Shown: positions 3,605 to 40,241 of the stretch, in pieces
Layout of the letters: the number at the start of each line of letters is the position of its first letter
Position numbering within the stretch: the stretch's first letter is position 1
Virus record (IMG/VR): IMGVR_UViG_3300009164_000103
Span: 1 to 53,313 of that record
Direction: 5' to 3' (one strand)
Length of the DNA stretch: 53,313 nucleotides
From: a virus
Lineage: Duplodnaviria > Caudoviricetes
Position numbers and translations under genes: made by a program
The notes under the pieces: generated by a model
Told to the model about the DNA's origin: nothing
The model's database searches: none
Seen by the model: only the letters and a program-made list of their open reading frames with translations

Positions 3605-4809
3605 GTAAAGGTATTGCATCTCTCGCTAGACAGGTTGCTTCTAAAGGCAGGGGTGGGGATTCCACCCTTTTACATATTCATCCCAGTGAATTGATGGGGA
3701 TGCGTACGCTTCTGAAACAGATTGATCCTGACATTGAGATCACTCTTAACCCTGAGACGGGTATGTACGAGGCTTTTAGCTGGAAGAAGTTACTAGCTGC
3801 GGTTGGGTTGGGGGCCAGTGTTGCTTTGATGTTTACTCCTTTTGCTGGATTAGGCGCAGCTGGGGCCAAGGGAAGCCTTGCCGCTATGACTGGTCTTGCC
3901 GGTAAGGTTATTTCATCAGCGGTTGTCCCTGCTTTAATTAGTGGTACAGCGGCAACTGCCGTTAGTGCATTCAAGCCAGATGAAAAGAAGGAAAGTCAGC
4001 AAGCCCTTACTGCCTTAGATAAATACAAGGCAGCTGAAAAGGAAAAAAACGATAAGAGCATTATTATCCCTCTATTGAGGTCAGCAAATACTGCACCTAC
4101 GATCTCACAACCGACGACAGCGAAATCTGCTCCTGTATCCACTAGCACTACTACGGCACAGCCTACAGGGGGGATAGCCTCTGCTCTTACGGCTGGAGTT
4201 ATGCCTAAATCGCAGCTTGCGCCAGTACCGCAGAAAGGTATAGCTTCTGTTTTCCAACCTTCCGTTGCTTCAGCGCCTGTTGTTCCTGAGGAAGAAGAAG
4301 ACGATGTGTTGCGCGAAGCGGAGAGTCCCTACAAGGCGTCTGGATATGCCGAAGGTGGCTCTCTTGAACCTGAAGAAAAGAAGGCCCGTCAGATCGTGCA
4401 GGATGCCATGGAAGCGATCCGTGGCGAAGGAGATGACCCTGAGGGTTCCCTCAATACCTACCTTGCTTATTACGGCAAAGACGCTTTGAAAGACTTGTAC
4501 AAGCGTATGTCTGGCAAGGAAGAGGTTGAAGAAGAAGACAACTACGAACCGCCTGAGGGGATGATTAAAGGCCCCGGCAATGGCATGGACGACATGGCTA
4601 CGGCTCGTATGGCTCATGGTGGTCAGAAGGTTCTTCTATCCAACGATGAGTTCATTATCCCTGCTGATGTCGTAAGCGGTTTGGGTGATGGCAGTAGTGA
4701 GTCAGGTGCCAGAAAGCTGTACGCCATGATGGACAGAGTTCGCATGGACAGGACTGGCAACAAGAAGCAACCTGGAAAGGTTAAAGACGTTCGGGTTCTA
4801 CCCGCTTAG
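3601..4809 (+). CDS. Internal virion / DNA-ejection protein
   Basis: GRGGDSTLLHIHP...NPETG N-terminus, hydrophobic Gly/Ala segment, C-terminal GPGNGMDD...LSNDEFIIPADVV domain. Confidence 0.7.
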   Translation: MSKGIASLARQVASKGRGGDSTLLHIHPSELMGMRTLLKQIDPDIEITLNPETGMYEAFSWKKLLAAVGLGASVALMFTPFAGLGAAGAKGSLAAMTGLAGKVISSAVVPALISGTAATAVSAFKPDEKKESQQALTALDKYKAAEKEKNDKSIIIPLLRSANTAPTISQPTTAKSAPVSTSTTTAQPTGGIASALTAGVMPKSQLAPVPQKGIASVFQPSVASAPVVPEEEEDDVLREAESPYKASGYAEGGSLEPEEKKARQIVQDAMEAIRGEGDDPEGSLNTYLAYYGKDALKDLYKRMSGKEEVEEEDNYEPPEGMIKGPGNGMDDMATARMAHGGQKVLLSNDEFIIPADVVSGLGDGSSESGARKLYAMMDRVRMDRTGNKKQPGKVKDVRVLPA

Positions 4810-4817
4810 GAATTAAT

Positions 4818-7800: not shown

Positions 7801-9089
7801 AGGCTGGTCGTGGTGCTGCTGCTGTTCGTGCTGGTGCATTCGGTGGTTCTCGTCAGGCTATTCAGGAAGGAATGGCTGAAGAGGCGTTACAGCGACAGCT
7901 TGGGGACATTGATGCAGTTGGTCGTCAGAAAGCATTTGAGAATGCTCAGTCTCAGTTTGATCGTGATCGTGCTGCTTCTCTTGCTTCTCAACAGACTAAT
8001 GTGCAATCTGCATTGCAGGCTGCTCTTGCTAATCAACAATCTGGTCTTACTACAGGTCGAGAGAATCTTGGAGCTAACCTTTCTACTCAACAGCTTGGCG
8101 CTCAAACTGGATTACAAGCTGCGCTTGCTAATCAACAAGCAGAACAACAGTCAGCTCTAACTGGTTATGGTACGAGAGCTGATATTCTTCGCTCTCAATC
8201 TGCACAAGACCTTCAGGCATCTCTGGCAAATCAACAAGCTGCACTTGCTACAGGTAGAGAGAACTTAGGCGCTAATCTCAATACTCAGCAACTGGGCGCT
8301 CAACAAGCGTTGCAGGCCGCTCTTGCTAATCAGCAATCGGCACAACAAGCTGCTCTCACTGGGTATGGGACTAGAGCGGATGTCCTTCGTTCTCAATCTG
8401 CACAAAACTTACAGGCAGACCTTGCTAACCAGCAGGCTGGCCTTACCGCTGGCAGAGAGAACCTTGGAGCACAGCTCAGTACGCAACAGCTTGGCGCTCA
8501 ACAAGCCCTACAGGCACAGCTTGCTAATCAGCAGGCAGGTCTTACCGCTGGTCAGGCTAACCTACAGTCTTCTCTTGCCACACAACAGCTTGGTGTTCAG
8601 TCTGGTTTAGAGGCAGCTAAGGCTACTCAGTACGGCGACATATCAATGACGCAGATGCAGTTGGATGCTGCGAAGCAGGCTTCACAAGAACAGGAAGCAG
8701 CTAGACAGCGTCAGTTCAATAATAGGTTGGCTGCAATTCAGCAGGGGTCAGCATCTGCTGGCGCACTAGCTGGGATGGGTGGTCAAATGATGAGCATCAA
8801 TCCTGCGGCACAACAGCTTGAGATTCAACGTCTTGCCGCTATGCAGCAGGCAGGTGGTGCCGTTGACGCTCGTACTCAAGAAGCGATGAACCTTCAGTAT
8901 CAAGACTTCATCAATCAGCAAAACGCTCCTTATCAGCAGATGAACTTCTTGCAAGGTATTATGTCTGGTATACCCACTGGTATGCAGACAGAGAATGTAC
9001 AGTTCGCTCGACCTGCTTCTGGTGGCTTGAGTGGTCTGTTGACCGCTGGTGCTGGGCTGGCTTCTAACTACTACGCAAACCAAAAATAA
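4818..9089 (+). CDS. Large repeat-rich internal virion / DNA-transfer protein (1423 aa)
   Basis: YMSPY...AGAFGGSRQ core, Q/A-rich repeats, C-terminal YQDFINQQNAPYQQMNFL and a Gly-rich hydrophobic tail. Confidence 0.7.
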   Translation: MADPLSSTYQTQDIPEYLRPFRNALLSSAFSSVYTPEAMKNFLPNATYFNAYTQNQPNQQQNTSGNTGDTGTTGNERNDAASNEESNKNAIFNALNMVSGKMPKLPGLVWDTNTRTYVPEAYKTIKSAKGGELNPKEDPIQKILDEYQSLREKMPVGFNQAASPADDANKLTGSVTSPGFKNPFGVTRDPSQTSSYTIGNNISPDITRVNPRPVIAPGVVPPVSTDVRPPTVPIYPGTPTVTPGVPPRPATPRTATPGTPTAPPVIPIRPPGSPTATPSTGVPVSGTGGGGGIGNLAQIFSDGFAGTTTANQGAGGYNPLQYATDDQARGLASLLGGTNQRTNTSGPLNVPSQNSLGFGGSDTFNAGLIQQQLRPGQTPSEMTSSLARLRAEVSGSGGDTSSIDRLIQQNNQAYASGARVSPVGQPPATTAPPATSKPPATTTPPATEQRTTGRGSQNQSQDPDIDRSPYTAPPATNTPPPQFSTRGEMATNDVDRGGGPAVRTADRSSNSAPPLRGSSPRNTPDETELESKRALELDAPPPIIPEPEAYNPETYSPETSVPEPDGGGIASLLGSNQSNTPESNTPESYTPDSYTPESYTPEASAPDSYTPESYTPEVYAPESYAPESYTPEYYNPEASAPESYTPDYGSDQSLASFDIGDDGRVNNYRKGGAVRRFDEGGPVALSTPPPAPPFSLGGFGAPQTPLAGGFGGPGGGASLFKAANPKAGDISQNLFNAPPVYAGQRTMLFGQDFGQGNADTGYTASNLTRNALSGVAGLGKTSIFDDEGQIREGTDFKKGVSAINSATDLSGGAAEEGANLIGASKLPPEQSYLMSLMPGIQGMGFKDAIKVNPIQAPNMINPMGVTAANLQGYQMAQPMGVSGQNIDVLGQLGSLSGTTVQGVPQLQQFQMQGPEKVTGQTRDILSTLGGLSSSKVQGVPQVQQFQMQGPEKVASGQTQVDQFGQQQAQQYMSPYMDAVTEMQKRDASRTAGMQKAGRGAAAVRAGAFGGSRQAIQEGMAEEALQRQLGDIDAVGRQKAFENAQSQFDRDRAASLASQQTNVQSALQAALANQQSGLTTGRENLGANLSTQQLGAQTGLQAALANQQAEQQSALTGYGTRADILRSQSAQDLQASLANQQAALATGRENLGANLNTQQLGAQQALQAALANQQSAQQAALTGYGTRADVLRSQSAQNLQADLANQQAGLTAGRENLGAQLSTQQLGAQQALQAQLANQQAGLTAGQANLQSSLATQQLGVQSGLEAAKATQYGDISMTQMQLDAAKQASQEQEAARQRQFNNRLAAIQQGSASAGALAGMGGQMMSINPAAQQLEIQRLAAMQQAGGAVDARTQEAMNLQYQDFINQQNAPYQQMNFLQGIMSGIPTGMQTENVQFARPASGGLSGLLTAGAGLASNYYANQK
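6551..6760 (+). repeat. Coding 15-bp tandem repeat encoding (T/A)PE(S/A)Y-like pentapeptides
   Basis: NTPESNTPESYTPDSYTPESYTPEASAPDSYTPESYTPEVYAPESY... visible in both DNA and protein. Confidence 0.9.
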
Positions 9090-10489: not shown

Positions 10490-10505
10490 TCTGTGAGGAT
10501 ATAAC

Positions 10506-13500
10506 ATGGCAGAAGTTTCTAGAATACTTAATGGGAAGACTTTTGTTTTCCCTGACGAGGAAACCGCAAGGCGAGCTGATGCTGCGTTAGAGGCCTCTCG
10601 TATAGCAAGAGCACAAAAAGAAGAGAGCTTCTTTGATGCTGGTGCTTTTCTTAAGTCTATAATTCCTGGTGCTATTAGAGGCACTGGTCTTGCCGCTACT
10701 GGAATCGGATCTGTATTCGATTCTGATACGGCGCGTAAAGTTGGCGAGTACTTGGAGGATAAGTCCAAGCAAACCTCAGAGTTTCTCATGGAGCCTTATC
10801 GGCGTTATACCAAAGGCGCAATGATTGGAGAGACAGCGGGTGGGATTATTCCTGGCATGGCTGCTACTGCTGCTATTGCTGCTGCTGCACCTGAGACGGG
10901 TGGTGCATCTCTTGCTTTACTGCCTGCCGTTGTTGGAGGTTTGTTTGGCGCTGCTCAAGGAGCAGGTGAAGTTGGTAGTGATATTCGTGAAGCTAGGGCC
11001 AAAGGCGCTCAGATCTCTCCAGAGCAGGAAAGGAATCTTGCTCTTATCCAAGGTGGGATTACTGGCGTTCTAGAAGGCGGGATCGCGGGTAAAGTTGGTA
11101 AGGGGATAAGGGGAATTTCTGCCGCAGGAAGGCTTGCAGCACAAGCTCCAGAAACGGAAGCCATTCAGGAACTTCTGAAGAGCGGATATGGAGGTGCTCT
11201 TCGTAGGGGCGCAGGTTTAGCTGCCGCAGAAGGTGCAGGTGAAGGCGTTCAACAACTCTCGCAGAATGTATTGGCGCGAGGAGATGTCTCTGCGCTTGGA
11301 CCTGGATACGATCCTCAGCGTGAACTTTTAGCAGGAGTGCCTGAGTCTGTTCTTGTCGGTGGTTTATTTGGTGGAGTGCTTGGCGGTGGCATTGAACTAT
11401 ACAAGCAGAAGACTCTCCAGAAAAGGCAAGCGCAAATTAGGGAGGCTCAGAGAGAAAGCGCCCCGGTTCAGCAAGAGATTGAAGATGCGCTTGCTACACG
11501 AGAGATCGAAGGCCAACCGCAACAGGAGATTATTCAAGGCACCCTTTCAGAGAAAGAGCAGGCTAGGCTTGACGATGAAGCGAAGAAGGAAGCCAAGAAG
11601 AATGATGCTGCCCTTACGAGTGCAGTAAATCTCTTTGATAATGAGAAGGCAACTGTAGATCAGAAGCAGAGAGCGTATAAAGAGATAGCCGCGCAAGAAC
11701 TTTTCTCTCAGACGTTTGCGGATCTAACTGGGAATAAAATCATCGAGGCAAACAGGAAAGCCACTGAACTATTTCGAGACAATGTAGATCCTAAGTCCAG
11801 TGCGCTGTATATTCAGATGAAGGAAAGGGCAGAGCAGGAAGCTGCATTGCCTTCAGGAGTAGCTGGTCCTACGCAGGAGCCTTCTGCCTTTATTCAGAGC
11901 AAAGAAGTCGAAATCAATCGGCTTGCTGATGAGATTAGCAAAGCGCCTGAAGTACCCGAAGGAGGCAATGTAACTCTACCTACTCCTCTCGACGAGGTAG
12001 CCGTGCCTACTACGAAGGTAGAGGCCACTGCTTCAGGAGAAGGTCGGATCCCGGCATTCCAAGAAATGGCCTCTAGAAAGATTTATAAGATACCGTATGC
12101 CAAGCTGACTGAGGATCAGCAGAGTATTGTAGATAAGGAAGCTGAGGACCAGACTGGGATCTCGATTATTCAGCCTAAGATTGAAGCGAAGCAGCAGGCT
12201 GCTGACCTTGAAACGCAACGAAAAAAGATAACTGGTCTAGTTGATTTTGTTTCCCGTCAGCGCCAGCAGGAACGATCTGTTCAAGAAGAAGAGTTCAACA
12301 ATGAACTGGCCCTAGAAGCGCAGCAAAGAGCAGAGCAGAAGACTTTAGAAGATCAAAAGAATGCAGAAGAAAAACAACGTCTACTTAATTCGTCTTTCGA
12401 TTCTGCTTTTTCTATAGCCTCTCAAGATGGGATCAAAAAGCCTGAGTTACGAAATGCGTACAAAAACATTATCGCCGTATCGGAGAAAGGATCTTTATAT
12501 GAAGACTTGATGGGCAAGGACAGAATTGAAGTAAACAAGAAAGTCAATGAGGTTATCTCCATGAACGGAGACATCAGCGGCCTTCCCTCTGTCAAGAAGT
12601 TCCGTGCTGCTCAAGCCCTTACTGCTCCTACTGTTACAGAGACACCAGCGCCTTCTATCGTTCCTGAAATTACTCTGGCCCCTGAGGTCTCTCCTATTGC
12701 AGAGCAGCAGGCTACTGAGACTGTTCCTATTACGGAACAGCCTACTGTAGAGCCTGCGGTACAGCCTGAATCTGTTGTCCCTAGTGAGATCGTAGAGACT
12801 CCTATTGAAAAGTCGTTGCCTTCAGAAGAAGGTATGGCAAAGCTGAAGGAGAAGAAGGGTGCTATTGCTCCCTCTACTCCAGTACAAGAAGCTGTTGTTG
12901 AACCTGAGCGTGGCACTCCTGTAGAAAGAACACCTATACGAAAAGAAGTCCCTCTGAATCTTGATGTCGATGCAGCTAGGGCCGTATCAGAAAAGGCTTA
13001 TCAGCAACTTGTGGATCTGAGCGTCAGCGATATCTATTCCCTCATGGTAGTGGATAGAGTTTTAGATGAGAAGGGGAACCCTAAGCCTACAGCTGCACGG
13101 TTCCTGAATAGCGTAATCAAGCTAGCATCGAAGGATGGGGATAGCCTCATCACCGAAGACAACATTATCAGGACAGTCAACCACGAAGTTGTTCACGGGA
13201 TGAAGGAGTCTGGGTTCTTTACCGATTCGGAATGGAAGCTGCTGACTAACAAGTTCACTCCCATTTCAGAGATGGACGACGAAACGATTGCCGCATATGA
13301 AAAACTGTACACCGATCAAGGTAATAGTCCTGAGGTAGTTCAAGAGAAGATTAAGGAAGAAGCTATTGCTGTTGCAATTGAGCGCCTGTCAGATATGCCT
13401 GCCAAGTCTCTCGACATTCCTAGCGTCTCTTTGTTAAGCAAGGTCAAGTCTCTCGCTCGTTTGGGTACTGCTGCGAATAATCTTGGGTACACCGCTGAGG

Positions 13501-16500
13501 ATTTGATCTCTGCTGTTCGTGCTGGAGATGTAGGCCGCAGGGCTATATCAGGCAAGCCTACCATGCTGGATGCAATAAGGCGGGGAGGAAGTATACCCGT
13601 TGAAACACGGGTCGATCCTGAGTCTTCTACGGCGCAACCAAAGGGTGTTTCTGTTCAACCTTCTGAGGAGACTACTCCTGAGGAAATTGATTTGGTTGAG
13701 GATACTACGATCCCTGAAGATCTTCGCGGCACTACTCCTTCGCAATTGCCTGAAGAATCTAAGGGTACGAAAGCGCAGGCCGATGCTTCGATGTATAAGG
13801 TGATAAAGCAGAATCCGTCAAAGCTCTTCAAGGTTAATAACAGCGGAAATGTTCTTGATCTTCTCTTTAGAAAAGAAACAATTAAAAAACCAGGAGATAC
13901 AGTAAACGAACTAAAGTCAAGATTCTTTCAGTCTAAGGCAGTTAAAGATATTGCAGGAGATAGATCTAAGCTGGGATCTATCCGTCTTGGTTTGCGCCAG
14001 AGGACTCTTGATTCTGCTGCTTCAGTTCTTAAACAGGCAGAGAATCTTTTCAGGAAAGATGGTAACCCTGTATGGGTTGAAACTTCTACGAGTGCTATCA
14101 CTGCGATTCGTGATTCCTATAAATCAAACGAACTCCTTAGCCAAGCTCTAAACGTAGGCTATATCTACCTTGACAGGAAGACTGGATTCTTTATGGTGAA
14201 GGAAGACAAGAACTACGCCATGATGCCAGCCATGAAGAACCTTTCATCCAAAGGCAAGCTGTATCAGGGTTGGGATGCTGCTATCGCTCAAAGGTTTGTT
14301 GATGTTGATAGCTCTGGTCGTGACGCCAAGAAGATGCTTGGTGGAGATTTCACTCTTAAACAAGCCCAGGATACTGTCAACTCTTACAAGAACGATGCAG
14401 ACATTCAAGAGTTTCTGAAAGTATACAAGAACTTCAATAATTCATTGATCGACTTGAATCAGTATGTTGGGAACTTTGATCCAAAGATGGCAGCAATGCT
14501 TAAGTCTTGGTACTACTCTCCATATTACAGAGTTCCTCTCGATGAGAATGGATATCTAGAAGCGCCGAATGTTGGATCTTCCAGGATTACCAACCTTTCT
14601 TCTGCTAAGAAGATATCTGGCCGGGAGATAGCGATTAACGATATGATACAAAACTTTATCGTTAACGCTCAGTACATGGCTGGTTATGCAATGAAGAACG
14701 AAGCGGCAATAAGGACGATCAGGGATTCTGTTGCTGCTGGAAATGCTAAGAGGGTTGCCTCTCCTAGTAATGCCACGCTAAATAATCAAGTTGTCAGGGT
14801 TAATGATAAGGGCGGTAAGGCTTATTACGAGATTCAAGACCCTCTTCTCTATCAGTCGATGAACTCGTCACAGGTCAGGCTGGATTCGATGGTGGTGTTA
14901 GGACGTGGATTCGCGCAAGCACTTCGTAGCGGCGTAACCTCTGCGCCAACCTTCATGTTCAATAATATGTTCTTGGATTCCTTCCGGTTGTACTACATGG
15001 GAATCTATCAAGACAACTTCTTTAAATCAGTTGCTGGGAATATCGTTCAAGGTATTGGATCTGTATATAAAGGGATGAGATACGGGACGGATCCCGTGTA
15101 CAACAAGCTGTTGAATGCTGGATTGATTACCAATAACTTTGCATCGAGAGATTCAGTGCAAGCGGCTAAGGAAATCAAGAGGCAGCTTGCTGTCGAGCAG
15201 GGTAGTGAGATTGCCAACGCCTTGAGGGCATTGAAGAACTACACCCTTGGCGGTCTGGAAACATTAAGCCGTGCATCAGAAGCCGTTAACAGAGTTCAGG
15301 TGTATAAGAATGTGTACAATAACCTGAAGAAACAAGGAGCAATGGACTCTGAGGCAGAGAGTTCTGCTTTGTTTGCTGCTATGCAATATCCTGTCAACTT
15401 CGATGTCAGGGGTTCAGGAGATTTAGTTCAGTACGCTGCTGCTTTAATTCCGTTCGTGAATGCCAGCGCCCAAGGTACGGATGTCTTCTACACGAATGTT
15501 AAAGAGTTTTGGAAGACGCAAGCCAAAGGGATGAAGCCCATTAACAAACTTCAGGCGTCTTCTCTTAGCGCCACAAAGAGAACTATGCTTAGTTCTTTTG
15601 GCTTGGCGACTCTCTATGCTTTCGGGATGGCTCTTTCTGATAACGAAGAGTACAAGAAGCTAACTTTAGATGAGCGGTTCAGGACTCTTCTAATACCTAT
15701 TCCTGGATCAGCAATAAAGATTCCAGTGCCTCCTGAGATTGGCGCTGTTACGCTGATGATCCCAGTTGCTGCCGCTGAAGCTATCGTGGGCATGGAAAAC
15801 GGTCCTCAGATTGCTAAAGCGATGCTTTCTTATTTCACTAATCTGTTTACGTTTAATCTAACCCCTCAGGCTGTTAAACCGGGCTTAGAGGTTCTTATCA
15901 ACAAAGACTTCTATACGGGAAGGGCGATTGAGAATCAGTCAATGCAGAGGGTTCTCCCTCAGTACCGATACGATGAAAGTAGCAGTAGCTTGAGCAAGGG
16001 GATTTCTGAATTTGCTAATTTTGCCACGCTGCCAATCTCTCCGATTCAGTTTGACCATCTTATCCGTGGATACTTTGGTACGTTGGGGATGTATGTGTCG
16101 GACGTTACCAATCAGCTTTACGATCCACAGAATAAGGACATCGACAGGATGAAGTTGTCGGATCCTTACCTATTGCCATTTATTGGCAAGAAGTTCGCTT
16201 CTCCTGTAGATCGCAAAGCGATGGAAGACTATTACGCTATCCGTAATTATGCAACGCAAGCCGCCAATACCTTGAAGATGATTGAAGCCTCCAAGGTATA
16301 CGAGGATAACCCTGAGAAGCTGAGAGAGATGTCATACATGGCTCTAGTCAATCAGGCAATGGAGGCTGGCCCTGAAAAGGAAATGCAGCAACTTAGAAAG
16401 GTGAAGCAGCAGGTTCTCTCTGCGCCAGGAGATCATATCAGTCCTTCTAAGAAGACTGATATCATCAAGCAGATCAATCTAAGAATGAATGAAGTGGCGA

Positions 16501-16547
16501 GGAAAGTGCAGCCCCTGAAGAGGTACGTGCCGTTCACCTTGTTTTAA
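10506..16547 (+). CDS. Very large internal virion protein (2013 aa) with a central HExxH motif and an LPD38-like C-terminal region
   Basis: Gly/Ala-rich hydrophobic N-terminus; VNHEVVH; VNFDVRG, IPFVNASAQG, NKDFYTGRAIE and SPIQFDHLIRGYFGTLG resemble LPD38 of large polyvalent proteins. Confidence 0.7.
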   Translation: MAEVSRILNGKTFVFPDEETARRADAALEASRIARAQKEESFFDAGAFLKSIIPGAIRGTGLAATGIGSVFDSDTARKVGEYLEDKSKQTSEFLMEPYRRYTKGAMIGETAGGIIPGMAATAAIAAAAPETGGASLALLPAVVGGLFGAAQGAGEVGSDIREARAKGAQISPEQERNLALIQGGITGVLEGGIAGKVGKGIRGISAAGRLAAQAPETEAIQELLKSGYGGALRRGAGLAAAEGAGEGVQQLSQNVLARGDVSALGPGYDPQRELLAGVPESVLVGGLFGGVLGGGIELYKQKTLQKRQAQIREAQRESAPVQQEIEDALATREIEGQPQQEIIQGTLSEKEQARLDDEAKKEAKKNDAALTSAVNLFDNEKATVDQKQRAYKEIAAQELFSQTFADLTGNKIIEANRKATELFRDNVDPKSSALYIQMKERAEQEAALPSGVAGPTQEPSAFIQSKEVEINRLADEISKAPEVPEGGNVTLPTPLDEVAVPTTKVEATASGEGRIPAFQEMASRKIYKIPYAKLTEDQQSIVDKEAEDQTGISIIQPKIEAKQQAADLETQRKKITGLVDFVSRQRQQERSVQEEEFNNELALEAQQRAEQKTLEDQKNAEEKQRLLNSSFDSAFSIASQDGIKKPELRNAYKNIIAVSEKGSLYEDLMGKDRIEVNKKVNEVISMNGDISGLPSVKKFRAAQALTAPTVTETPAPSIVPEITLAPEVSPIAEQQATETVPITEQPTVEPAVQPESVVPSEIVETPIEKSLPSEEGMAKLKEKKGAIAPSTPVQEAVVEPERGTPVERTPIRKEVPLNLDVDAARAVSEKAYQQLVDLSVSDIYSLMVVDRVLDEKGNPKPTAARFLNSVIKLASKDGDSLITEDNIIRTVNHEVVHGMKESGFFTDSEWKLLTNKFTPISEMDDETIAAYEKLYTDQGNSPEVVQEKIKEEAIAVAIERLSDMPAKSLDIPSVSLLSKVKSLARLGTAANNLGYTAEDLISAVRAGDVGRRAISGKPTMLDAIRRGGSIPVETRVDPESSTAQPKGVSVQPSEETTPEEIDLVEDTTIPEDLRGTTPSQLPEESKGTKAQADASMYKVIKQNPSKLFKVNNSGNVLDLLFRKETIKKPGDTVNELKSRFFQSKAVKDIAGDRSKLGSIRLGLRQRTLDSAASVLKQAENLFRKDGNPVWVETSTSAITAIRDSYKSNELLSQALNVGYIYLDRKTGFFMVKEDKNYAMMPAMKNLSSKGKLYQGWDAAIAQRFVDVDSSGRDAKKMLGGDFTLKQAQDTVNSYKNDADIQEFLKVYKNFNNSLIDLNQYVGNFDPKMAAMLKSWYYSPYYRVPLDENGYLEAPNVGSSRITNLSSAKKISGREIAINDMIQNFIVNAQYMAGYAMKNEAAIRTIRDSVAAGNAKRVASPSNATLNNQVVRVNDKGGKAYYEIQDPLLYQSMNSSQVRLDSMVVLGRGFAQALRSGVTSAPTFMFNNMFLDSFRLYYMGIYQDNFFKSVAGNIVQGIGSVYKGMRYGTDPVYNKLLNAGLITNNFASRDSVQAAKEIKRQLAVEQGSEIANALRALKNYTLGGLETLSRASEAVNRVQVYKNVYNNLKKQGAMDSEAESSALFAAMQYPVNFDVRGSGDLVQYAAALIPFVNASAQGTDVFYTNVKEFWKTQAKGMKPINKLQASSLSATKRTMLSSFGLATLYAFGMALSDNEEYKKLTLDERFRTLLIPIPGSAIKIPVPPEIGAVTLMIPVAAAEAIVGMENGPQIAKAMLSYFTNLFTFNLTPQAVKPGLEVLINKDFYTGRAIENQSMQRVLPQYRYDESSSSLSKGISEFANFATLPISPIQFDHLIRGYFGTLGMYVSDVTNQLYDPQNKDIDRMKLSDPYLLPFIGKKFASPVDRKAMEDYYAIRNYATQAANTLKMIEASKVYEDNPEKLREMSYMALVNQAMEAGPEKEMQQLRKVKQQVLSAPGDHISPSKKTDIIKQINLRMNEVARKVQPLKRYVPFTLF

Positions 16548-22855: not shown

Positions 22856-22903
22856 ATCATACACATTTTTACATTTGCGCGCAAATCTTTTATCATGTAG
22901 GAT
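22856..22903. promoter_or_regulatory. Divergent sigma70-type promoter pair sharing a palindromic -35 region
   Basis: Plus: TTGCGC(22875-80)-17-TAGGAT(22898-903). Minus: TTGCGC(22884-79)-17-TATGAT(22861-56). Palindrome ATTTGCGCGCAAAT at 22873-22886. Confidence 0.7.
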
Positions 22904-22909
22904 CATAGA

Positions 22910-24715
22910 GTGCCTAGTTTCGATAGCCTTGGATCACAGTTTGAGTACTCGGGCCGCAGTATCTGGAGAACTATTTGTCCAGATTGTAGTCCAGGTCGTC
23001 ATAAAGAGAACGTAAACCTACCCGTCCTGTCCTGGTCCAGAGGGGATCTTGGGCCTGTCTACCACTGCCATCATTGCGGATCGAAGGGAGTTGTACTCCC
23101 CCCGAAGGACAATTATCGAAACGTATACGAATACCGGGAGAGCAAAAGCGAAGTGATTGATTTAAGTGATCTTGATTTTCTATTTGATAATGATCCTCCC
23201 GTACCTGCGGTAGTGATTGATCCAATACCTGCACAGCCAACAGTAGAGGTGAAGCCTGAGAGGAAGCTGATGCAACAGCATCTCGACTACCTCTTGAGGC
23301 GTGGGATATCGGAAGAGACTGCCGATCTAGGCAGGTTGAGCAGTACACGCAAGTTCTTGCGCTCTGGTGGAGGAGATCAGGAGGTGATTGCCTTCCCCTT
23401 CTACGACCTTGATGGCAACCTAGCCAGTAGCAAGTATCGTTCATCAGCTACGAAGGCATTCGCCCAGGATACTGGGGCTGGGGGCCTGCTGTACGGGTTG
23501 CATCAGAAGTTTGATACTACCAGACCTCTTGTGATCTGCGAAGGCGAGATGGACGCCGTATCAGTAGCACAGGCAGGTATACCCAATTGGGTATCGGTCC
23601 CAGCGGGTGCGCCAGTTAAGGCAGAGAAGGGAAACAGCCAGCGGTTCTCTTGGATTGCAGAGCTAGAAGAATTCCTTGGTCGGTTTAGCATGTATATCCT
23701 TTGTGTTGATGCTGATACTCCAGGTAAAAACCTGGGTGAAGAGTTAGCGCGAAGGCTAGGACGTAGCCGTTGCATGTCCGTTGCCTACCCGTCTGATAGT
23801 AAAGATGCAAACGATGTACTGGTTAAACATGGGCAGGATGTCCTGCGTCAGGTTCTGTTAGACGCCAGACCCATACCTCTTACGGCACTGCATACGGCAG
23901 ATCACTACGCAGATCAAGTCATGGATCTATTCATCAAAGGCGATGGTCGAGGTGAGAGTACTGGGTTCGCCGGCGTGGATCAACTCTACACTGTGGCGCG
24001 TGGTCAGATGACAGTGGTGACGGGTATACCCTCGTCGGGCAAGTCTAATTTCCTGGATCAGATCATGGTCAATCTGGCACATCGAGAAGGATGGAAGTTC
24101 GCTATCGCATCCATGGAAAACGAACCAGCCAAACATATATCCAAGCTCTCTGAGATGCACATCAAGAAGCCGTTCTATAATCAATGGCCTGGAAGCATGA
24201 CCAAGTCCGAAGCTCAAGCGGAGATCGCTTGGTGTCACAAACACTTTACGTTTATCGACTTCGCAAGTAGCCGTGAGCTTCCTACAGTAGATGCTATGCT
24301 CGACCGCGCCAACGCCGCTGTGCTGCGGTATGGGGTTGATGGATTAGTGATTGATCCATACAACTGCTTGGACCTTGGACGTAATCAAACGCAGAGCGAA
24401 ACAGAATCAGTCTCGCTTATGTTAAGCAAGGTGTCAGCGTTCGCCAAGGCAAGCAATGTGCATGTCTGGTTTGTCGCGCACCCTGCTAAGATGATGAACC
24501 AAGGTACAGCGCCAATCGTTCCAGGTGGGTACGAGATCAGCGGTTCGGCTCACTGGTATAACAAAACAGATTGTGGTTTAACCGTACACCGGAAAGACCA
24601 GGATGGTTACGTCGAACTGCACGTCTGGAAGTGCAGGTTCAAGTGGGTAGGCAAGCAAGGGATGACGCGCCTGAAGTACGACATCCCCACTGGCACATAC
24701 TACGAGATCATTTGA
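22910..24715 (+). CDS. Primase-helicase (T7 gp4/Twinkle-like)
   Basis: Zinc finger CPDC...CHHC, TOPRIM EGEMD and DAD, KDAND, SF4 Walker A GIPSSGKS, VIDPYN, VAHP, ISGSAHW. Confidence 0.93.
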   Translation: MPSFDSLGSQFEYSGRSIWRTICPDCSPGRHKENVNLPVLSWSRGDLGPVYHCHHCGSKGVVLPPKDNYRNVYEYRESKSEVIDLSDLDFLFDNDPPVPAVVIDPIPAQPTVEVKPERKLMQQHLDYLLRRGISEETADLGRLSSTRKFLRSGGGDQEVIAFPFYDLDGNLASSKYRSSATKAFAQDTGAGGLLYGLHQKFDTTRPLVICEGEMDAVSVAQAGIPNWVSVPAGAPVKAEKGNSQRFSWIAELEEFLGRFSMYILCVDADTPGKNLGEELARRLGRSRCMSVAYPSDSKDANDVLVKHGQDVLRQVLLDARPIPLTALHTADHYADQVMDLFIKGDGRGESTGFAGVDQLYTVARGQMTVVTGIPSSGKSNFLDQIMVNLAHREGWKFAIASMENEPAKHISKLSEMHIKKPFYNQWPGSMTKSEAQAEIAWCHKHFTFIDFASSRELPTVDAMLDRANAAVLRYGVDGLVIDPYNCLDLGRNQTQSETESVSLMLSKVSAFAKASNVHVWFVAHPAKMMNQGTAPIVPGGYEISGSAHWYNKTDCGLTVHRKDQDGYVELHVWKCRFKWVGKQGMTRLKYDIPTGTYYEII

Positions 24716-37694: not shown

Positions 37695-40241
37695 GTGAAT
37701 ATAAGCAATATCCTTGCTGGTCAGTACACTCCGCAACAGATCACTAAGATAATAGCCAAGGCAAAGCAGCTCCCTTATGATGAACAGGTTGAGCTAGCGA
37801 ACTTGCTTGGGCAGTACGAGAATATTCTCAAGGTGCAGAAGTGCCAGAAGAACTTTATTGATTTCGTCAAAGAGATGTGGCCTGCCTTTATTCCCGGTAG
37901 GCATCATGATATCATGGCCGACGCCTTTGAGCGGGTAGCAAACGGAACCTGTAAGCGCCTGATTATCAACATGGCACCTCGCCATACAAAATCGGAATTC
38001 AGTTCGTACCTGCTCCCAGCTTGGTTCCTTGGCAAGTATCCAGACAAGAAGATTATCCAAACGGCACACACAGCAGAACTTGCTGTAGGGTTTGGTCGAA
38101 AGGTAAGGAACCTAGTCGGAAACCCGCACTACCAGAAGATCTTCCCTAACGTGTCTCTTTCGTCAGACTCCAAGGCCGCTGGTCGATGGAATACGAATAA
38201 GGGAGGAGATTACTTTGCCATAGGCGTCGGAGGCGCGGTTACTGGAAAAGGTGCAGATTGTGCATACTTTGCTTGTAAGTGCTTGACTCTTAATGGTATG
38301 CTACCTATATCCCAAGTGAAAGTTGGGCAGGAGGTATATGGATATAATCACAAACTGGGAAGATCAGAATGGACAAGAGTCCTTGCAGTCTCTACCCAAT
38401 ACAAACCTGAGCTTGTTTCCGTTGGAGGATTCATCTGCACCCCAGATCACAGAATCTACGACGGATCAGACTACACAAAAGCATCTGAAGCACGTTCCGC
38501 TACAGTGCTGCCGATGTGGGAAAGACTTTCTTCGCTTGAGGAAGGAGCACGAAAGATCACTGAGGAGAAGGGGGACGACCAAGGAGTCGAGGTATTACTG
38601 CTCGAACGCTTGCCGGGAGGTAGGGGGAATCTACAACAAGTGTCCACTCTGCGACGAATGGAAAGCGCAGATGGCAGTAACATGCAAGGCATGTTATCTG
38701 AAGGACAAGCATGTGAAGGTCAATTGCTCTCACTGCAAGAAGGACTTCATGAAGGTTTCCTCGGAGTTCAAGAAGGGAGAGGAGAGAAGCGGAAACAAGA
38801 ATCACTTCTGCACGAAGGCGTGTTATTCGGACTGGAAGGCGACCAGACCAAAAACGTCAGTTCCACTTACCGGGACGTGCAATACTTGCAAATCTCAGTG
38901 CCTTGGGAAGAAAAGGTATTGCAGCAGGGATTGCTACTCGAAGAGGAAGGCCAAGAGCACTACCTACGTCGGGGCTTGGGGCGAGAGGAAGAGATTCGTA
39001 AGGAAGAGGGACAACGGGGTCTGTGCCTATTGCCAACGAGTAAAGGACAGGTCAGCGGTACATCACATCAACCAGGACGCGACGGACAACAGGTTGGAGA
39101 ACATGATACTACTCTGCGAGCCGTGTCACAACCATTATCATCATACAGCGTCGGAACCTGTGCAGAGGATCTTAAGAGCCTACTTCGAGGGTCTGGTCAC
39201 TGGGTAGTTGATATTCAAACTGAGAGCAAGAACTTCTTCTGTGAGGGGGTTCTTGCTCATAATTGCCTCATCATTGACGACCCGCACAGTGAGCAAGAGG
39301 CCGCTATAGCTGCCGCAAATCCTAGCATTTACGACGGCGTGTACGAGTGGTATACGTCTGGTCCTCGTCAGCGTTTGCAGCCTGGAGGGGCCATTGTTAT
39401 CGTCATGACTCGCTGGAGCAAGCGAGATCTATGCGGTCAAATCCTAAAGGCATCGTCTCAGAAAGATGGCTTAGATGAATGGGAAGTGATTGAGTTCCCC
39501 GCTATCATGCCGTCTGGCAATCCGTTATGGCCTGAGTTCTGGCCTCTGGAAGAACTGGAAAAGATCAAGGCTGAACTTCCCGTCGCCAAGTGGAATGCAC
39601 AGTATCAGCAAAATCCTACCTCTGAAGAGGGTGCTCTTGTAAAAAGAGAGTGGTGGAAGATATGGGAAAAGGACGAGCCGCCAGTCTGTGAGTACATCAT
39701 TCAGTCCTGGGACACCGCACTAACCAAAGGCACTCGATCAGATTATTCAGCCTGTACGACATGGGGAATATTCTACGAGAAAGATAATGATGGTAAAAGG
39801 GTAGCTAAGATTATACTCTTGAATGCGTATCAAGATAAGCTAGAGTTCCCTGAACTTAAGCAAAAGGCGCTAGAGGAGTATCGTTATTGGAAGCCAGACT
39901 GTTGCATCATTGAAGCAAAGGCTGCTGGTGGACCACTTGTGTTTGAGTTACGCAAGATGGGCATACCAATTCAAGATTACACTCCATCTCGTGGTAATGA
40001 TAAGATTGTTCGTGTAAATGCTGTTAGTGATATATTCGCTTCAGGTTTTGTTTACGCACCTCCTTTGCGCTGGGCAGAGGAGCTTATTGAACAGTTCGCT
40101 TCGTTTCCTAACTCTGACCATGATGACCTTGTTGACAGTTCAACGCAGGCCCTGTTGCGATTCAGGCAGGGCGGGTTTATATCAACACAGAGCGATGAAG
40201 ACGAAGAGTACGTTCCCAACAAGAAAGCAGATTACTACTAA
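37695..40241 (+). CDS. terL: Terminase large subunit precursor containing an intein (513 aa after splicing)
   Basis: MAPRHTKSE (Walker A), GKGAD|CLIIDDPH (Walker B restored on splicing), VMTRW, YQQNP, QSWDTA, DYSACTTWG, HDDLVDS. Confidence 0.95.
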   Translation: MNISNILAGQYTPQQITKIIAKAKQLPYDEQVELANLLGQYENILKVQKCQKNFIDFVKEMWPAFIPGRHHDIMADAFERVANGTCKRLIINMAPRHTKSEFSSYLLPAWFLGKYPDKKIIQTAHTAELAVGFGRKVRNLVGNPHYQKIFPNVSLSSDSKAAGRWNTNKGGDYFAIGVGGAVTGKGADCAYFACKCLTLNGMLPISQVKVGQEVYGYNHKLGRSEWTRVLAVSTQYKPELVSVGGFICTPDHRIYDGSDYTKASEARSATVLPMWERLSSLEEGARKITEEKGDDQGVEVLLLERLPGGRGNLQQVSTLRRMESADGSNMQGMLSEGQACEGQLLSLQEGLHEGFLGVQEGRGEKRKQESLLHEGVLFGLEGDQTKNVSSTYRDVQYLQISVPWEEKVLQQGLLLEEEGQEHYLRRGLGREEEIRKEEGQRGLCLLPTSKGQVSGTSHQPGRDGQQVGEHDTTLRAVSQPLSSYSVGTCAEDLKSLLRGSGHWVVDIQTESKNFFCEGVLAHNCLIIDDPHSEQEAAIAAANPSIYDGVYEWYTSGPRQRLQPGGAIVIVMTRWSKRDLCGQILKASSQKDGLDEWEVIEFPAIMPSGNPLWPEFWPLEELEKIKAELPVAKWNAQYQQNPTSEEGALVKREWWKIWEKDEPPVCEYIIQSWDTALTKGTRSDYSACTTWGIFYEKDNDGKRVAKIILLNAYQDKLEFPELKQKALEEYRYWKPDCCIIEAKAAGGPLVFELRKMGIPIQDYTPSRGNDKIVRVNAVSDIFASGFVYAPPLRWAEELIEQFASFPNSDHDDLVDSSTQALLRFRQGGFISTQSDEDEEYVPNKKADYY
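38259..39263 (+). mobile_element. Intein (335 aa, TerL residues 189-523)
   Basis: N-terminal Cys, ISQVKVGQEV, block B CTPDHRI, block F VVDIQTESKNFF, block G VLAHN, then +1 Cys. Confidence 0.92.
38338..39207 (+). CDS. Zinc-finger-rich HNH homing endonuclease nested in the +1 frame of the intein
   Basis: Eight CxxC/CxxxC units, then VRKRDNGVCAYC...VHHINQDATDNRLENMILLCEPCHNHYH; AGGAGG just before the ATG at 38338. Confidence 0.85.
   Translation: MDIITNWEDQNGQESLQSLPNTNLSLFPLEDSSAPQITESTTDQTTQKHLKHVPLQCCRCGKDFLRLRKEHERSLRRRGTTKESRYYCSNACREVGGIYNKCPLCDEWKAQMAVTCKACYLKDKHVKVNCSHCKKDFMKVSSEFKKGEERSGNKNHFCTKACYSDWKATRPKTSVPLTGTCNTCKSQCLGKKRYCSRDCYSKRKAKSTTYVGAWGERKRFVRKRDNGVCAYCQRVKDRSAVHHINQDATDNRLENMILLCEPCHNHYHHTASEPVQRILRAYFEGLVTG

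What the first reader, a model, noticed from the sequence alone, without database searches (positions are those of the whole stretch)
38259..39263. TerL intein whose HNH homing endonuclease is written in a different reading frame
Seen: an intein (Cys189 to His-Asn523, +1 Cys) interrupts TerL just before the Walker B strand (GKGAD|CLIIDD). Its central ~240 aa contain no endonuclease motif and read like a shadow frame. The +1 frame (38323-39207) encodes a clear multi-zinc-finger HNH nuclease whose TAG falls exactly where intein block F (HWVVDIQ) begins. About 885 nt are stop-free in both frames, and the nuclease codons visibly favour C/G third positions, unlike the T-rich third positions elsewhere. 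Known: canonical inteins carry in-frame endonucleases, mostly LAGLIDADG. Inference: a free-standing HNH gene invaded a mini-intein and is tolerated because the filler frame is spliced out, so splicing and homing come from two separate proteins. I recall that alternate-frame intein endonucleases have been noted in actinobacteriophage surveys, so this is rare and little characterised rather than certainly new.
Basis: partly seen in the sequence, partly recalled or inferred. Interest (0 to 1): 0.9.

Follow-up and report, generated by a model that had tools for sequence, protein, structure and literature searches.

The report
Terminase intein with overlapping-frame HNH nuclease
A self-splicing protein insert in a freshwater phage's DNA-packaging gene carries its own DNA-cutting enzyme written in a second, overlapping reading frame, a recently described arrangement that appears to be widespread among environmental phages.

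Summary
The terminase large subunit (TerL) ORF 37695-40241 (848 aa) carries a 335-aa class-1 intein (38259-39263) at GKGAD|CLIIDD. Intein-less 513-aa alleles are 98-99% identical in the extein. Only intein residues 1-86 and 288-335 form the Hint splicing fold. Residues 87-287 are unconserved and predicted disordered. The +1 frame (ATG 38338 to TAG 39207) encodes a 289-aa protein with four Cys4 zinc ribbons and an HNH nuclease. Selection keeps both frames open. T is absent from the third codon position at 0 of 84 stop-prone junctions, against 38 of 156 elsewhere. Synonymous recoding never left the TerL frame open (0 of 20000). All 11 homologous loci show the same pattern. Against an 82%-identical relative, dN/dS in the nuclease core is 0.15 in the +1 frame and 0.94 in the TerL frame. 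Independent assemblies show no indels. The kind is already in print: out-of-frame endonucleases in inteins, and out-of-frame HNH genes in phage methylases (2025-26 papers). This HNH-in-intein form is a new variant, and it is common: 39 of 62 viral-contig relatives of the nuclease are nested. Translation, splicing and homing are inferred.

The parts
37695..40241 (+). TerL precursor gene (848 aa, frame 0), including the intein
   Evidence: ORF. phrog_38 terminase large subunit E 4.5e-98 and Pfam Terminase_6C. 8000 homologues.
37695..38258 (+). N-extein (188 aa), ending GKGAD
   Evidence: Alignment with the intein-less 513-aa alleles P0008 and P0009.
38259..39263 (+). Class-1 intein, 335 aa: Cys1, block B T61-x-x-H64, block F VVDIQT, terminal His-Asn, followed by Cys+1
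   Evidence: Precise insertion relative to P0008/P0009. Invariant C1, T61, H64, D318, N335 in 12 inteins. The profile hits the NrdJ-1 intein at E 2.3e-13 in two stretches, N and C. Foldseek top hits are inteins and Hint domains.
38259..38516 (+). Hint N-lobe (intein residues 1-86), frame 0 under purifying selection
   Evidence: pLDDT 82-92. dN/dS in frame 0 is 0.05-0.07 against L025.
38517..39119 (+). Frame-0 filler (intein residues 87-287): unconserved, predicted disordered, kept free of stops only
   Evidence: pLDDT below 50 throughout. Frame-0 dN/dS is 0.94. No conservation in A4. Zero stops against an expected 10-22.
39120..39263 (+). Hint C-lobe (intein residues 288-335, blocks F and G). 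Its first ~85 nt also encode the C-terminal helix of the nuclease, so that stretch is doubly constrained.
   Evidence: pLDDT 79-91. Conserved columns S295, G299, A302, L309, G311, G313 in frame 0 and Y267, H268 and later columns in +1.
38329..38334 (+). Shine-Dalgarno-like AGGAGG, 3 nt upstream of the +1 ATG, formed by the Q-E-V codons of the Hint domain
   Evidence: Sequence. GAGGT precedes the start in 10 of 12 loci.
38338..39207 (+). +1-frame gene for a 289-aa zinc-ribbon HNH endonuclease (ATG to TAG)
   Evidence: The start position is conserved at 79 or 85 nt into the intein in 12 of 12 loci (10 ATG, 2 TTG). A gene caller elsewhere predicted a 289-aa homologue from the same start (P0122).
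38338..38484 (+). Nuclease N-terminal leader (residues 1-49) overprinted on the Hint N-lobe: disordered and unconstrained
   Evidence: pLDDT 35-43. dN/dS in +1 is 0.85 here.
38485..39021 (+). Four Cys4 zinc ribbons (C57/60+C88/92, C102/105+C116/119, C130/133+C158/162, C181/184+C195/199), the presumed DNA-recognition array
   Evidence: All 16 Cys are invariant in 6 of 6 sequences at 29-44% identity. Folded in the model. Weak Pfam zf-FCS hit.
39022..39141 (+). HNH catalytic core: C229-x2-C232, H242-H243, N255, C260-x2-C263-H264, H268
   Evidence: Pfam PF01844 over residues 234-274 of the 294-aa form. Invariant columns. Foldseek hits to the HNH domains of Cap5, ScoMcrA, EcoKMcrA and IscB.
39264..40241 (+). 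C-extein, starting CLIIDDPH (Walker B strand), through the nuclease domain of TerL
   Evidence: Pfam Terminase_6C over residues 671-821.

Best explanation
This is a mobile intein made of two separately translated proteins that share about 870 nt of DNA. In frame 0, ribosomes make an 848-aa TerL precursor. The two Hint lobes (intein residues 1-86 and 288-335) fold together across a roughly 200-residue disordered filler. They excise the intein and ligate GKGAD to CLIIDD, restoring a 513-aa terminase. Ribosomes also start at an internal ribosome-binding site and ATG (38338) that lie inside the Hint N-lobe codons. They read the +1 frame and make a 289-aa protein: a disordered 49-residue leader, four Cys4 zinc ribbons and a C-terminal HNH nuclease. 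This protein most likely nicks or cuts intein-less TerL alleles near the Walker-B coding site during co-infection, so that repair copies the intein and nuclease in (homing). Selection on the nuclease's synonymous sites keeps the TerL frame free of stops, so the essential terminase is never truncated. Shown here: the intein anatomy, the two frames, purifying selection per frame, stop avoidance, conservation, and a patchy distribution. Inferred: internal initiation, splicing, cleavage specificity and homing.
For: Anatomy: the insertion is precise relative to the 513-aa alleles P0008 and P0009, which are 99% and 98% identical in shared columns. The intein profile hits the NrdJ-1 intein at E 2.3e-13 in separate N- and C-terminal stretches. 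The AlphaFold2 model has pLDDT above 80 for residues 1-86 and 288-335 and below 50 for 87-287. Foldseek top hits are NrdJ-1, BIL, DnaX, gp41-1, Hedgehog and RecA Hint domains, at probability 1.0 and E 1e-3 to 1e-1. Nuclease: Pfam HNH and 15 PHROG HNH families. All 16 ribbon Cys and the HNH residues are invariant at 29-44% identity. The model is folded from residue 50. Dual coding under selection: T3 occurs at 0 of 84 stop-prone junctions against 38 of 156 elsewhere, and 0 of 20000 synonymous recodings stay open. The same holds in 11 of 11 loci: 0 of 740 T3 at stop-prone junctions, and permutation gives an open frame in at most 20 of 5000 for each locus. Against L025, substitutions fall on frame-0 position 3 in the exteins (89 of 121 and 165 of 216) and in the Hint lobes. 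In the nuclease core they fall on frame-0 position 1, which is +1 position 3 (67 of 115). There dN/dS is 0.15 in +1 and 0.94 in frame 0. Start signal: ATG or TTG lies 79 or 85 nt into the intein in 12 of 12 loci. GAGGT lies upstream in 10 of 12. All 6 loci that start at 85 use TAT-GAC for Y-D, including three contigs with 62-63% GC. A +1 stop sits directly before the start in L024, L030 and L031. Not an artefact: contigs from two other studies (X8, X13) span the whole gene with 48 substitutions and 0 gaps, and X3 tiles it with no listed differences. Mobility: on an extein tree of 120 TerLs, the 13 intein-bearing rows need at least 8 gains or losses, and at least 5 are forced by starred branches. 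The smallest supported clade holding the window has 4 rows with the intein and 2 without. Hint third positions are less diverged than extein third positions (29 of 94 against 254 of 479, Fisher p 1e-4). The nuclease tree rejects the extein clade L020+L021 (p-AU 0.0055, group chosen after seeing the tree). L005/P0006 is a 162-aa derivative with an in-phase 519-nt deletion of the nuclease core. That is the decay stage expected of a homing cycle.
Against: Nothing here shows that the +1 protein is made. In the window the AGGAGG-to-ATG spacer is only 3 nt, which I recall to be shorter than optimal, and 2 of 12 loci lack GAGGT. The start and ribosome-binding site could partly be by-products of the conserved E-V-Y-G-Y-D peptide. 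The Pfam HNH score is marginal (22.5 against 21.4 bits) and the Foldseek E-values for both models are weak (0.02 and 0.001). The single-sequence intein gets no Pfam Hint hit. Extein and nuclease trees agree in broad outline (win+L025, L022+L032), which also fits long vertical co-inheritance. The lower synonymous divergence of the Hint lobes could partly reflect the overlap. The RNA-library contigs (X18) that cover 38611-39068 are unstranded and could be carried-over DNA. Two database proteins (P0146, P0147) read from TerL and Hint-N straight into the C-terminal part of a related nuclease. They could be errors, decayed copies, or a hint of frame-switching.
Confidence: 0.8

Rival explanations
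1. Assembly or sequencing artefact: two compensating indels put a normally in-frame HNH domain out of frame.
For: An out-of-frame domain flanked by in-frame Hint lobes is what two compensating indels would produce. Two database proteins (P0146, P0147) do run from Hint-N into a related nuclease frame.
Against: Contigs from other studies span the gene with 0 gaps. Eleven distinct loci at 30-84% nuclease identity have the same +1 offset. A randomly shifted frame would carry 10-22 stops, and none is seen. None of the best 150 profile hits is a TerL-length in-frame fusion.
Confidence: 0.01
2. The +1 ORF is a relic. The nuclease is no longer made or needed, and only the openness of the TerL frame is selected.
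For: No expression data. The ribosome-binding-site spacing in the window is weak. A decayed derivative exists (L005), and some distant relatives have stops in the nuclease frame (L105, L113, L134, L142).
Against: dN/dS is 0.15 in +1 against 0.94 in frame 0. All metal ligands and catalytic residues are invariant down to 29% identity. A relic would not stay open for about 290 codons in 11 of 11 loci.
Confidence: 0.05
3. The nuclease is made by a programmed +1 ribosomal frameshift from the TerL frame, as a TerL-N/Hint-N/HNH fusion, rather than by internal initiation.
For: The +1 frame is open from 25-82 nt into the intein in all loci. The fused forms P0146 and P0147 exist in the protein library.
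Against: A start codon is conserved at 79 or 85 nt, with GAGGT upstream. In L024, L030 and L031 a +1 stop lies immediately before that start, so any shift would have to occur downstream of it. The fusion points in P0146 and P0147 lie in the middle of the nuclease and would destroy the first zinc ribbons. I did not search for a slippery site.
Confidence: 0.06
4. The nested HNH has been domesticated as a packaging cofactor of the terminase rather than serving as a homing endonuclease. Terminase-associated HNH proteins are known in cos phages (recalled; PMC3592412 seen as a listing and abstract only).
For: It sits inside the terminase gene and has been retained across TerL lineages down to about 31% identity.
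Against: TerL alleles 98-99% identical in the extein lack the whole element. Relatives of the nuclease are nested in a DNA polymerase A intein and in C5-methylase genes, which have nothing to do with packaging. The distribution is patchy and there is a tree conflict.
Confidence: 0.08

Closest known systems
Actinobacteriophage inteins with out-of-frame or antisense homing endonucleases (Gosselin, Arsenault and Gogarten, bioRxiv 10.1101/2025.01.02.630785; abstract and sections 8 and 15 read)
   Same: An intein, including TerL inteins, whose endonuclease is encoded between the splicing blocks in a frame other than the extein and Hint frame. The host frame stays open. The authors explain it as invasion by a free-standing endonuclease gene.
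   Different: The out-of-frame case there is an endonuclease VII-like enzyme in frame 3. HNH is listed only as an in-frame intein domain. The authors say the second ORFs typically lie outside the splicing domain. Here the enzyme is a four-zinc-ribbon PF01844 HNH in frame +1. Its start and stop lie inside Hint motifs, and the phages are uncultured freshwater ones.
Cyanobacterial dnaX intein with an out-of-frame LAGLIDADG endonuclease (Phillips, DeSimone and Gogarten, bioRxiv 10.64898/2026.09.14.751524; abstract and passages read)
   Same: The filler is disordered in the intein frame and the endonuclease is well folded in an overlapping ORF. dN/dS depends on the frame. Shine-Dalgarno motifs lie upstream. 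Intein-free and intein-bearing alleles coexist.
   Different: LAGLIDADG rather than HNH. The ORF is labelled +2. The host gene is cellular (DNA polymerase III gamma/tau), not a phage terminase.
ShiLan-type hidden HNH in mycobacteriophage DNA methylases (Arsenault, Gosselin and Gogarten, Genes 2025, PMC11855218; abstract, section 19 and passages read)
   Same: An out-of-frame HNH with flanking zinc fingers sits inside an uninterrupted host ORF. The stop codon lies at the very end of the insert. The distribution among close relatives is disjunct. In my search, relatives of the window's nuclease were nested in C5-methylase ORFs (L107, L133, L141).
   Different: That element has no splicing domain, so the filler stays in the methylase. 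It is in frame 3 with a GTG start, no ribosome-binding site was detected, and leaderless initiation was proposed. Here a complete intein removes the filler and a Shine-Dalgarno-like site precedes an ATG.
Fractured genes: split inteins (NrdJ-1, gp41-1) with a free-standing endonuclease gene between the halves (Dassa et al., NAR 2009, PMC2677866; listing and abstract only; details recalled)
   Same: The nearest solved relatives of this Hint domain are the NrdJ-1 and gp41-1 inteins. In both arrangements the nuclease is a separate gene product located at the endonuclease-insertion point of the Hint fold.
   Different: There the host gene is physically split and splicing is in trans. Here the host frame reads through the nuclease gene and splicing is in cis.

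Membership tests
Intein (Hint splicing domain, class 1) | Precise in-frame insertion relative to intein-less homologues at a conserved site | tested here: met
   P0008 and P0009 (513 aa) align without the 335 residues, with GKGAD directly followed by CLIIDD.
Intein (Hint splicing domain, class 1) | Catalytic residues: Cys/Ser1, block B T-x-x-H, block F Asp, terminal His-Asn, +1 Cys/Ser/Thr | tested here: met
   C1, T61, H64, D318 and N335 are invariant in 12 of 12 inteins. H334 is present in at least 90%. Cys+1 is present.
Intein (Hint splicing domain, class 1) | Sequence and fold similarity to Hint domains | tested here: met
   The profile of 12 sequences hits the NrdJ-1 intein at E 2.3e-13 and Spl DnaX at 0.018. 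Foldseek top hits are all inteins or Hint domains. The single sequence gets no Pfam Hint hit.
Intein (Hint splicing domain, class 1) | Protein splicing that yields a ligated extein | not testable with these tools
   Inferred only, from TerL being essential and the catalytic residues being intact.
HNH endonuclease (Pfam PF01844, His-Me finger) | Profile match above the curated threshold | tested here: met
   22.5 bits against a cut-off of 21.4 (marginal) for the window. 23.5 and 23.7 bits for L022 and L003. phrog_1271 E 6e-13.
HNH endonuclease (Pfam PF01844, His-Me finger) | Catalytic His, Asn and His plus the CxxC...CxxC metal site | tested here: met
   C229, C232, H242, H243, N255, C260, C263, H264 and H268 are invariant in 6 of 6.
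HNH endonuclease (Pfam PF01844, His-Me finger) | Beta-beta-alpha-metal fold | tested here: inconclusive
   The model has strands 239-243 and 256-260 and helix 261-270 at pLDDT 80-89. Foldseek hits to the HNH domains of Cap5, McrA and IscB have probability about 1.0 but E only 0.02-0.25.
HNH endonuclease (Pfam PF01844, His-Me finger) | DNA nicking or cleavage activity | not testable with these tools
   Needs purified protein.
Homing endonuclease (functional class) | Encoded within a self-splicing element and patchily distributed among near-identical host alleles | tested here: met
   13 of 120 TerLs carry the element and need at least 8 changes on the extein tree. Alleles 98-99% identical in the extein lack it.
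Homing endonuclease (functional class) | History of the element incongruent with its host gene | tested here: inconclusive
   One supported conflict (L020/L021/L030, p-AU 0.0055, chosen post hoc). The rest of the nuclease tree is unresolved.
Homing endonuclease (functional class) | Cleaves the element-free allele and promotes copying of the element | not testable with these tools
   No cultured host. Needs in vitro cleavage and co-infection assays.
Intein with an out-of-frame endonuclease (as described in the 2025-26 preprints) | Endonuclease ORF on the same strand in another frame between the splicing blocks, with the host frame open throughout | tested here: met
Intein with an out-of-frame endonuclease (as described in the 2025-26 preprints) | Purifying selection on the endonuclease frame and relaxed selection on the host frame in the overlap | tested here: met
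   dN/dS 0.15 against 0.94. Among the 10 listed substitutions in the core between the window and a 98%-identical variant, 6 are synonymous in +1 and 2 in frame 0 (23 of that variant's 63 differences were not listed).

The most novel reading that the evidence does not exclude
The +1-nested state is the normal way of life of a whole clade of zinc-ribbon HNH homing endonucleases, not a rare accident. The gene has co-evolved with its Hint host so that the ribosome-binding site, start and stop are built from conserved splicing-motif codons. The same nuclease clade has spread, always overprinted, into inteins of different TerL families, a DNA polymerase A intein and intein-less C5-methylase inserts. 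Standard gene callers report one ORF per locus, so this large class of mobile nuclease genes goes almost unseen in phage annotation.
Probability: 0.45. Interest if true: 0.65.

Novelty: new variant of a known kind. Interest (0 to 1): 0.5.

Why it matters
The finding adds a clean, quantified case to a very recent idea: the splicing and homing functions of an intein can be two proteins sharing one stretch of DNA. Three points go beyond what I read in print. First, the enzyme is an HNH with a four-ribbon zinc array inside a genuine intein, which links the published intein cases (endonuclease VII-like, LAGLIDADG) to the published hidden HNH of methylases. Second, the signature of selection is explicit: no T at any stop-prone third position, in 11 of 11 loci. 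That signature could be turned into a detector for hidden overlapping genes. Third, the arrangement appears common in environmental phages: 39 of 62 viral-contig relatives of the nuclease are nested, 38 of them at +1. This suggests that annotation pipelines systematically miss these genes. It also offers a compact natural model for how two reading frames divide constraint. For intein engineers, it shows that a roughly 200-residue disordered filler appears to be tolerated at the endonuclease-insertion point.

Tried and rejected
Negative or uninformative results:

- Single-sequence searches of the frame-0 intein gave nothing useful (Pfam and PHROGs). Against the PDB, only NrdJ-1 appeared, at E 1.4. 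The profile of 12 inteins was needed.
- blastn of TerL against 50,697 phage records found only two distant matches, at 66-68% identity: phage 023Pt_psg01 and Pelagibacter phage HTVC027P. The host remains unknown.
- A single-protein scan of viral contigs with the nuclease found nothing.
- A degenerate block-F DNA pattern gave 18 loci, of which only 3 were true.
- The genome-contig scan with A3 found no relative in 185,579 species genomes. It used a single peptide pattern, so this is weak evidence of absence from prophages.
- A word-index search of 5.8 billion proteins found only 3 relatives of the nuclease. I take this as under-calling of nested ORFs, not rarity, because the exhaustive profile search found 22 clusters at E below 1e-30 and 1011 below 1e-10.
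- The joints in the read-laying table (skips of 76-1725 nt, sides of 36 nt or less, at 85% likeness) come from other TerL-bearing organisms. None is the exact 38258/39264 intein-less junction, so these four runs show no intein-less allele of this strain.
- The 0.58 word share of many runs reflects a 98%-identical variant, not the intein alone.
- Two other nested ORFs in the window (5437-5919 and 7699-8157, inside the 1434-aa ORF) have no family hits and look like chance.
- The literature search for intein + homing endonuclease + 'alternative reading frame' returned 0 papers. The relevant papers use 'out-of-frame'.
- I did not run complex prediction, because no binding claim is made.

Full report
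**What is there.** The window is a 53-kb IMG/VR virus record. Runs from freshwater and lake metagenomes hold it. ORF 37695-40241 (848 aa) is a terminase large subunit (TerL): phrog_38 scores E 4.5e-98 and Pfam Terminase_6C also matches. Alignment with homologues shows a 335-residue insertion between GKGAD and CLIIDD. The insertion begins with Cys and ends with His-Asn, and Cys follows it. The 513-aa alleles P0008 and P0009 lack it, and they are 99% and 98% identical to the window protein in shared columns.

**The insert is an intein, but only its ends.** As a single sequence, the frame-0 insert hits no Pfam or PHROG family. Against the PDB it hits only the NrdJ-1 intein, at E 1.4. A profile of 12 homologous inserts hits the NrdJ-1 intein at E 2.3e-13, in two separate stretches. 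Profile positions 7-88 match the N-terminal part of the intein and positions 322-339 match the C-terminal part. C1, T61, H64 (block B T-x-x-H), D318 (block F) and N335 are invariant. The AlphaFold2 model has pLDDT 82-92 for residues 1-86 and 79-91 for residues 288-335. Residues 87-287 are all below 50. Its best structural neighbours are inteins and other Hint domains: NrdJ-1, a bacterial intein-like domain, DnaX, gp41-1, Hedgehog and RecA. The E-values are modest because 200 of the 335 residues are disordered.

**The +1 frame encodes a real nuclease.** The +1 frame is open from 38320 to 39204. It scores as HNH in Pfam (22.5 bits against a cut-off of 21.4) and in 15 PHROG HNH families, the best at E 6e-13. 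Six homologues at 29-44% identity keep every Cys of four CxxC...CxxC ribbons. They also keep the HNH residues C229, C232, H242, H243, N255, C260, C263, H264 and H268. The model is disordered for residues 1-49 and folded after that. Its HNH part resembles the HNH domains of Cap5, McrA and IscB.

**Both frames are kept open by selection.**
- In the nuclease core (723 nt), the TerL frame has 0 stops and the third frame has 12.
- A stop in the TerL frame needs a T at a nuclease third position followed by AA, AG or GA.
- There are 84 such junctions and none has T. Of the other 156 junctions, 38 have T.
- Recoding the same protein with the phage's codon usage gives a mean of 22 stops, and 0 of 20000 recodings are open.
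- Shuffling the ORF's own synonymous codons gives a mean of 10.3 stops, again 0 of 20000 open.

The same holds in 11 of 11 distinct loci, with 0 of 740 T3 at stop-prone junctions.

**Constraint switches between frames along the element.** I compared the window with L025, an 82-83% identical relative with no gaps in the intein. In the exteins, substitutions fall on frame-0 third positions: 89 of 121 and 165 of 216. The same is true in the Hint N-lobe (24 of 35) and the Hint C-lobe (5 of 6). In the nuclease core, 67 of 115 fall on frame-0 first positions, which are +1 third positions.

| Region | dN/dS, frame 0 | dN/dS, +1 frame |
|---|---|---|
| Overlapped Hint N-lobe | 0.07 | 0.85 |
| Nuclease core | 0.94 | 0.15 |

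The first 49 nuclease residues are therefore a free-riding leader laid over the Hint domain. The 200-residue filler is a free-riding linker laid over the nuclease.

**How the nuclease is probably made.** In 12 of 12 loci a start codon lies 79 or 85 nt into the intein: 10 ATG and 2 TTG (L030 also has an ATG at 91). It is formed by the Tyr-Gly or Tyr-Asp codons of the conserved E-V-Y-G-Y-D-H motif. GAGGT, from Glu-Val, lies upstream in 10 of 12 loci. The spacer is about 7 nt for the start at 85. In the window type the spacer is 3 nt after AGGAGG. All six loci that start at 85 use TAT-GAC, and three of them are contigs with 62-63% GC. In L024, L030 and L031 a +1 stop directly precedes the start. 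A gene caller in another data set predicted a 289-aa homologue from the same start (P0122). Internal initiation is therefore the best reading, but it is an inference.

**Not an assembly artefact.** Contigs of 10.4 kb (X8) and 17.9 kb (X13), from other studies, span the whole gene with 48 substitutions and no gaps. X3 tiles it without listed differences. No insertions or deletions were reported. Of that variant's 63 differences, 40 were listed. Of the 10 listed in the nuclease core, 6 are synonymous in +1 and 2 in frame 0. Contigs from an RNA library (X18) match 38611-39068 exactly, but they are unstranded and could be DNA.

**Signs of mobility.**
- On an extein tree of the 120 best TerL homologues, the 13 rows with this intein need at least 8 gains or losses. 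At least 5 are forced by well-supported branches.
- The smallest supported clade around the window holds 4 rows with the intein and 2 without.
- Hint third positions are less diverged than extein third positions: 29 of 94 against 254 of 479, p 1e-4.
- The nuclease tree is mostly unresolved. It does reject the extein clade L020+L021, with p-AU 0.0055, for a group chosen after seeing the tree.
- L005/P0006 carries a 162-aa intein in which 519 nt of the nuclease core are deleted in phase. Both frames stay open.

**Breadth.**
- Every full-length relative of the nuclease that I could place in DNA is nested at +1 in a TerL intein at the same site. These are L003, L014/L020, L021, L022/L023, L024, L025, L028/L029, L030, L031 and L032/L033. 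Their TerL identity to the window falls as low as about 31%.
- None of the best 150 profile hits among 1.84 billion representatives is a TerL-length in-frame fusion.
- I searched viral contigs with a shorter three-ribbon subgroup of the nuclease. In 39 of 62 loci the match lies inside an ORF of at least 460 aa in another frame, and in 38 of those 39 it lies at +1.
- I checked ten of those host ORFs with Pfam. Five are TerLs, four of them with an Intein_splicing hit. One is a DNA polymerase A with a weak intein hit. Three are C5 DNA methylases without an intein. One has only an intein hit.
- L024 TerL carries a second intein, with a different HNH (HNH_3, E 1.3e-14) in the +2 frame.

**Comparison with the literature.** The kind is already described. 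An actinobacteriophage survey reports inteins with endonucleases in another frame or on the other strand. Its out-of-frame case is endonuclease VII-like in frame 3, and HNH is listed only in frame. A 2026 preprint describes an out-of-frame LAGLIDADG endonuclease in the cyanobacterial dnaX intein, with frame-dependent dN/dS and Shine-Dalgarno motifs. A 2025 paper describes an out-of-frame zinc-finger HNH in mycobacteriophage methylases that has no splicing domain. I found no description of an out-of-frame HNH inside an intein. That statement rests on searches and on the parts of the three papers I read. The supplements were closed.

**Verdict.** This is a new variant of a recently described kind. 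Its interest lies in how clean the evidence is and in how common the arrangement appears to be.

Noticed in passing
L024:1639-5307 (TerL, 1223 aa), second intein around residues 832-1182; nested ORF L024:4392-5105: One TerL gene carries two inteins. The second is near the C-terminus (PAG|C...VHN|S). It holds a different HNH (Pfam HNH_3, E 1.3e-14) in the +2 frame. The out-of-frame solution has therefore arisen with at least two HNH types.
   Followed up: partly
L107:2121-3614, L133:1824-3527, L141:1326-3497: Distant relatives of the nuclease lie at +1 inside C-5 cytosine DNA methylase ORFs that have no intein hit. This resembles the published ShiLan-type hidden HNH and suggests the two phenomena share a nuclease lineage.
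   Followed up: partly
L130:1203-4013: A family-A DNA polymerase ORF (Pfam E 4e-59) has a weak intein hit. An HNH-motif match lies at +1 inside the insert, but it covers only about 50 residues.
   Followed up: partly
Proteins P0146 (540 aa) and P0147 (442 aa): These library proteins start as TerL plus Hint N-lobe. They run through part of the filler, then continue in the frame of a related nuclease and end at its stop. They may be indel errors, decaying copies or frame-switched products. Their DNA could not be fetched.
   Followed up: no
Proteins P0018, P0019, P0021, P0026-P0029 (TerL homologues; P0018 and P0019 aligned): This TerL family carries other inteins at other ATPase-motif sites. P0018 has one at PRH|TKSE with a LAGLIDADG_3 domain, and P0019 has one just after LIIDDPH with a Hom_end domain. 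Up to 1382-aa forms carry several intein-type Pfam domains. P0029 (832 aa) has no annotated endonuclease domain and may hide another out-of-frame gene.
   Followed up: no
L005:8392-8877 (minus strand), same as protein P0006: A 162-aa mini-intein derived from this element by an in-phase 519-nt deletion of the nuclease core. A 133-codon remnant of the +1 ORF is still open.
   Followed up: yes
window 4785-9086, with nested ORFs 5437-5919 and 7699-8157: A 1434-aa ORF with no Pfam hit holds two same-strand nested ORFs of 161 and 153 codons. Neither matches a family, so they are probably chance.
   Followed up: partly
window 10497-16544 and 22901-24712: Context genes: a 2016-aa protein with an LPD38 'large polyvalent protein' domain (E 7.8e-32) and a Toprim/DnaB-type primase-helicase. 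The nearest named TerL relatives by DNA are phage 023Pt_psg01 and Pelagibacter phage HTVC027P, at 66-68% identity.
   Followed up: no
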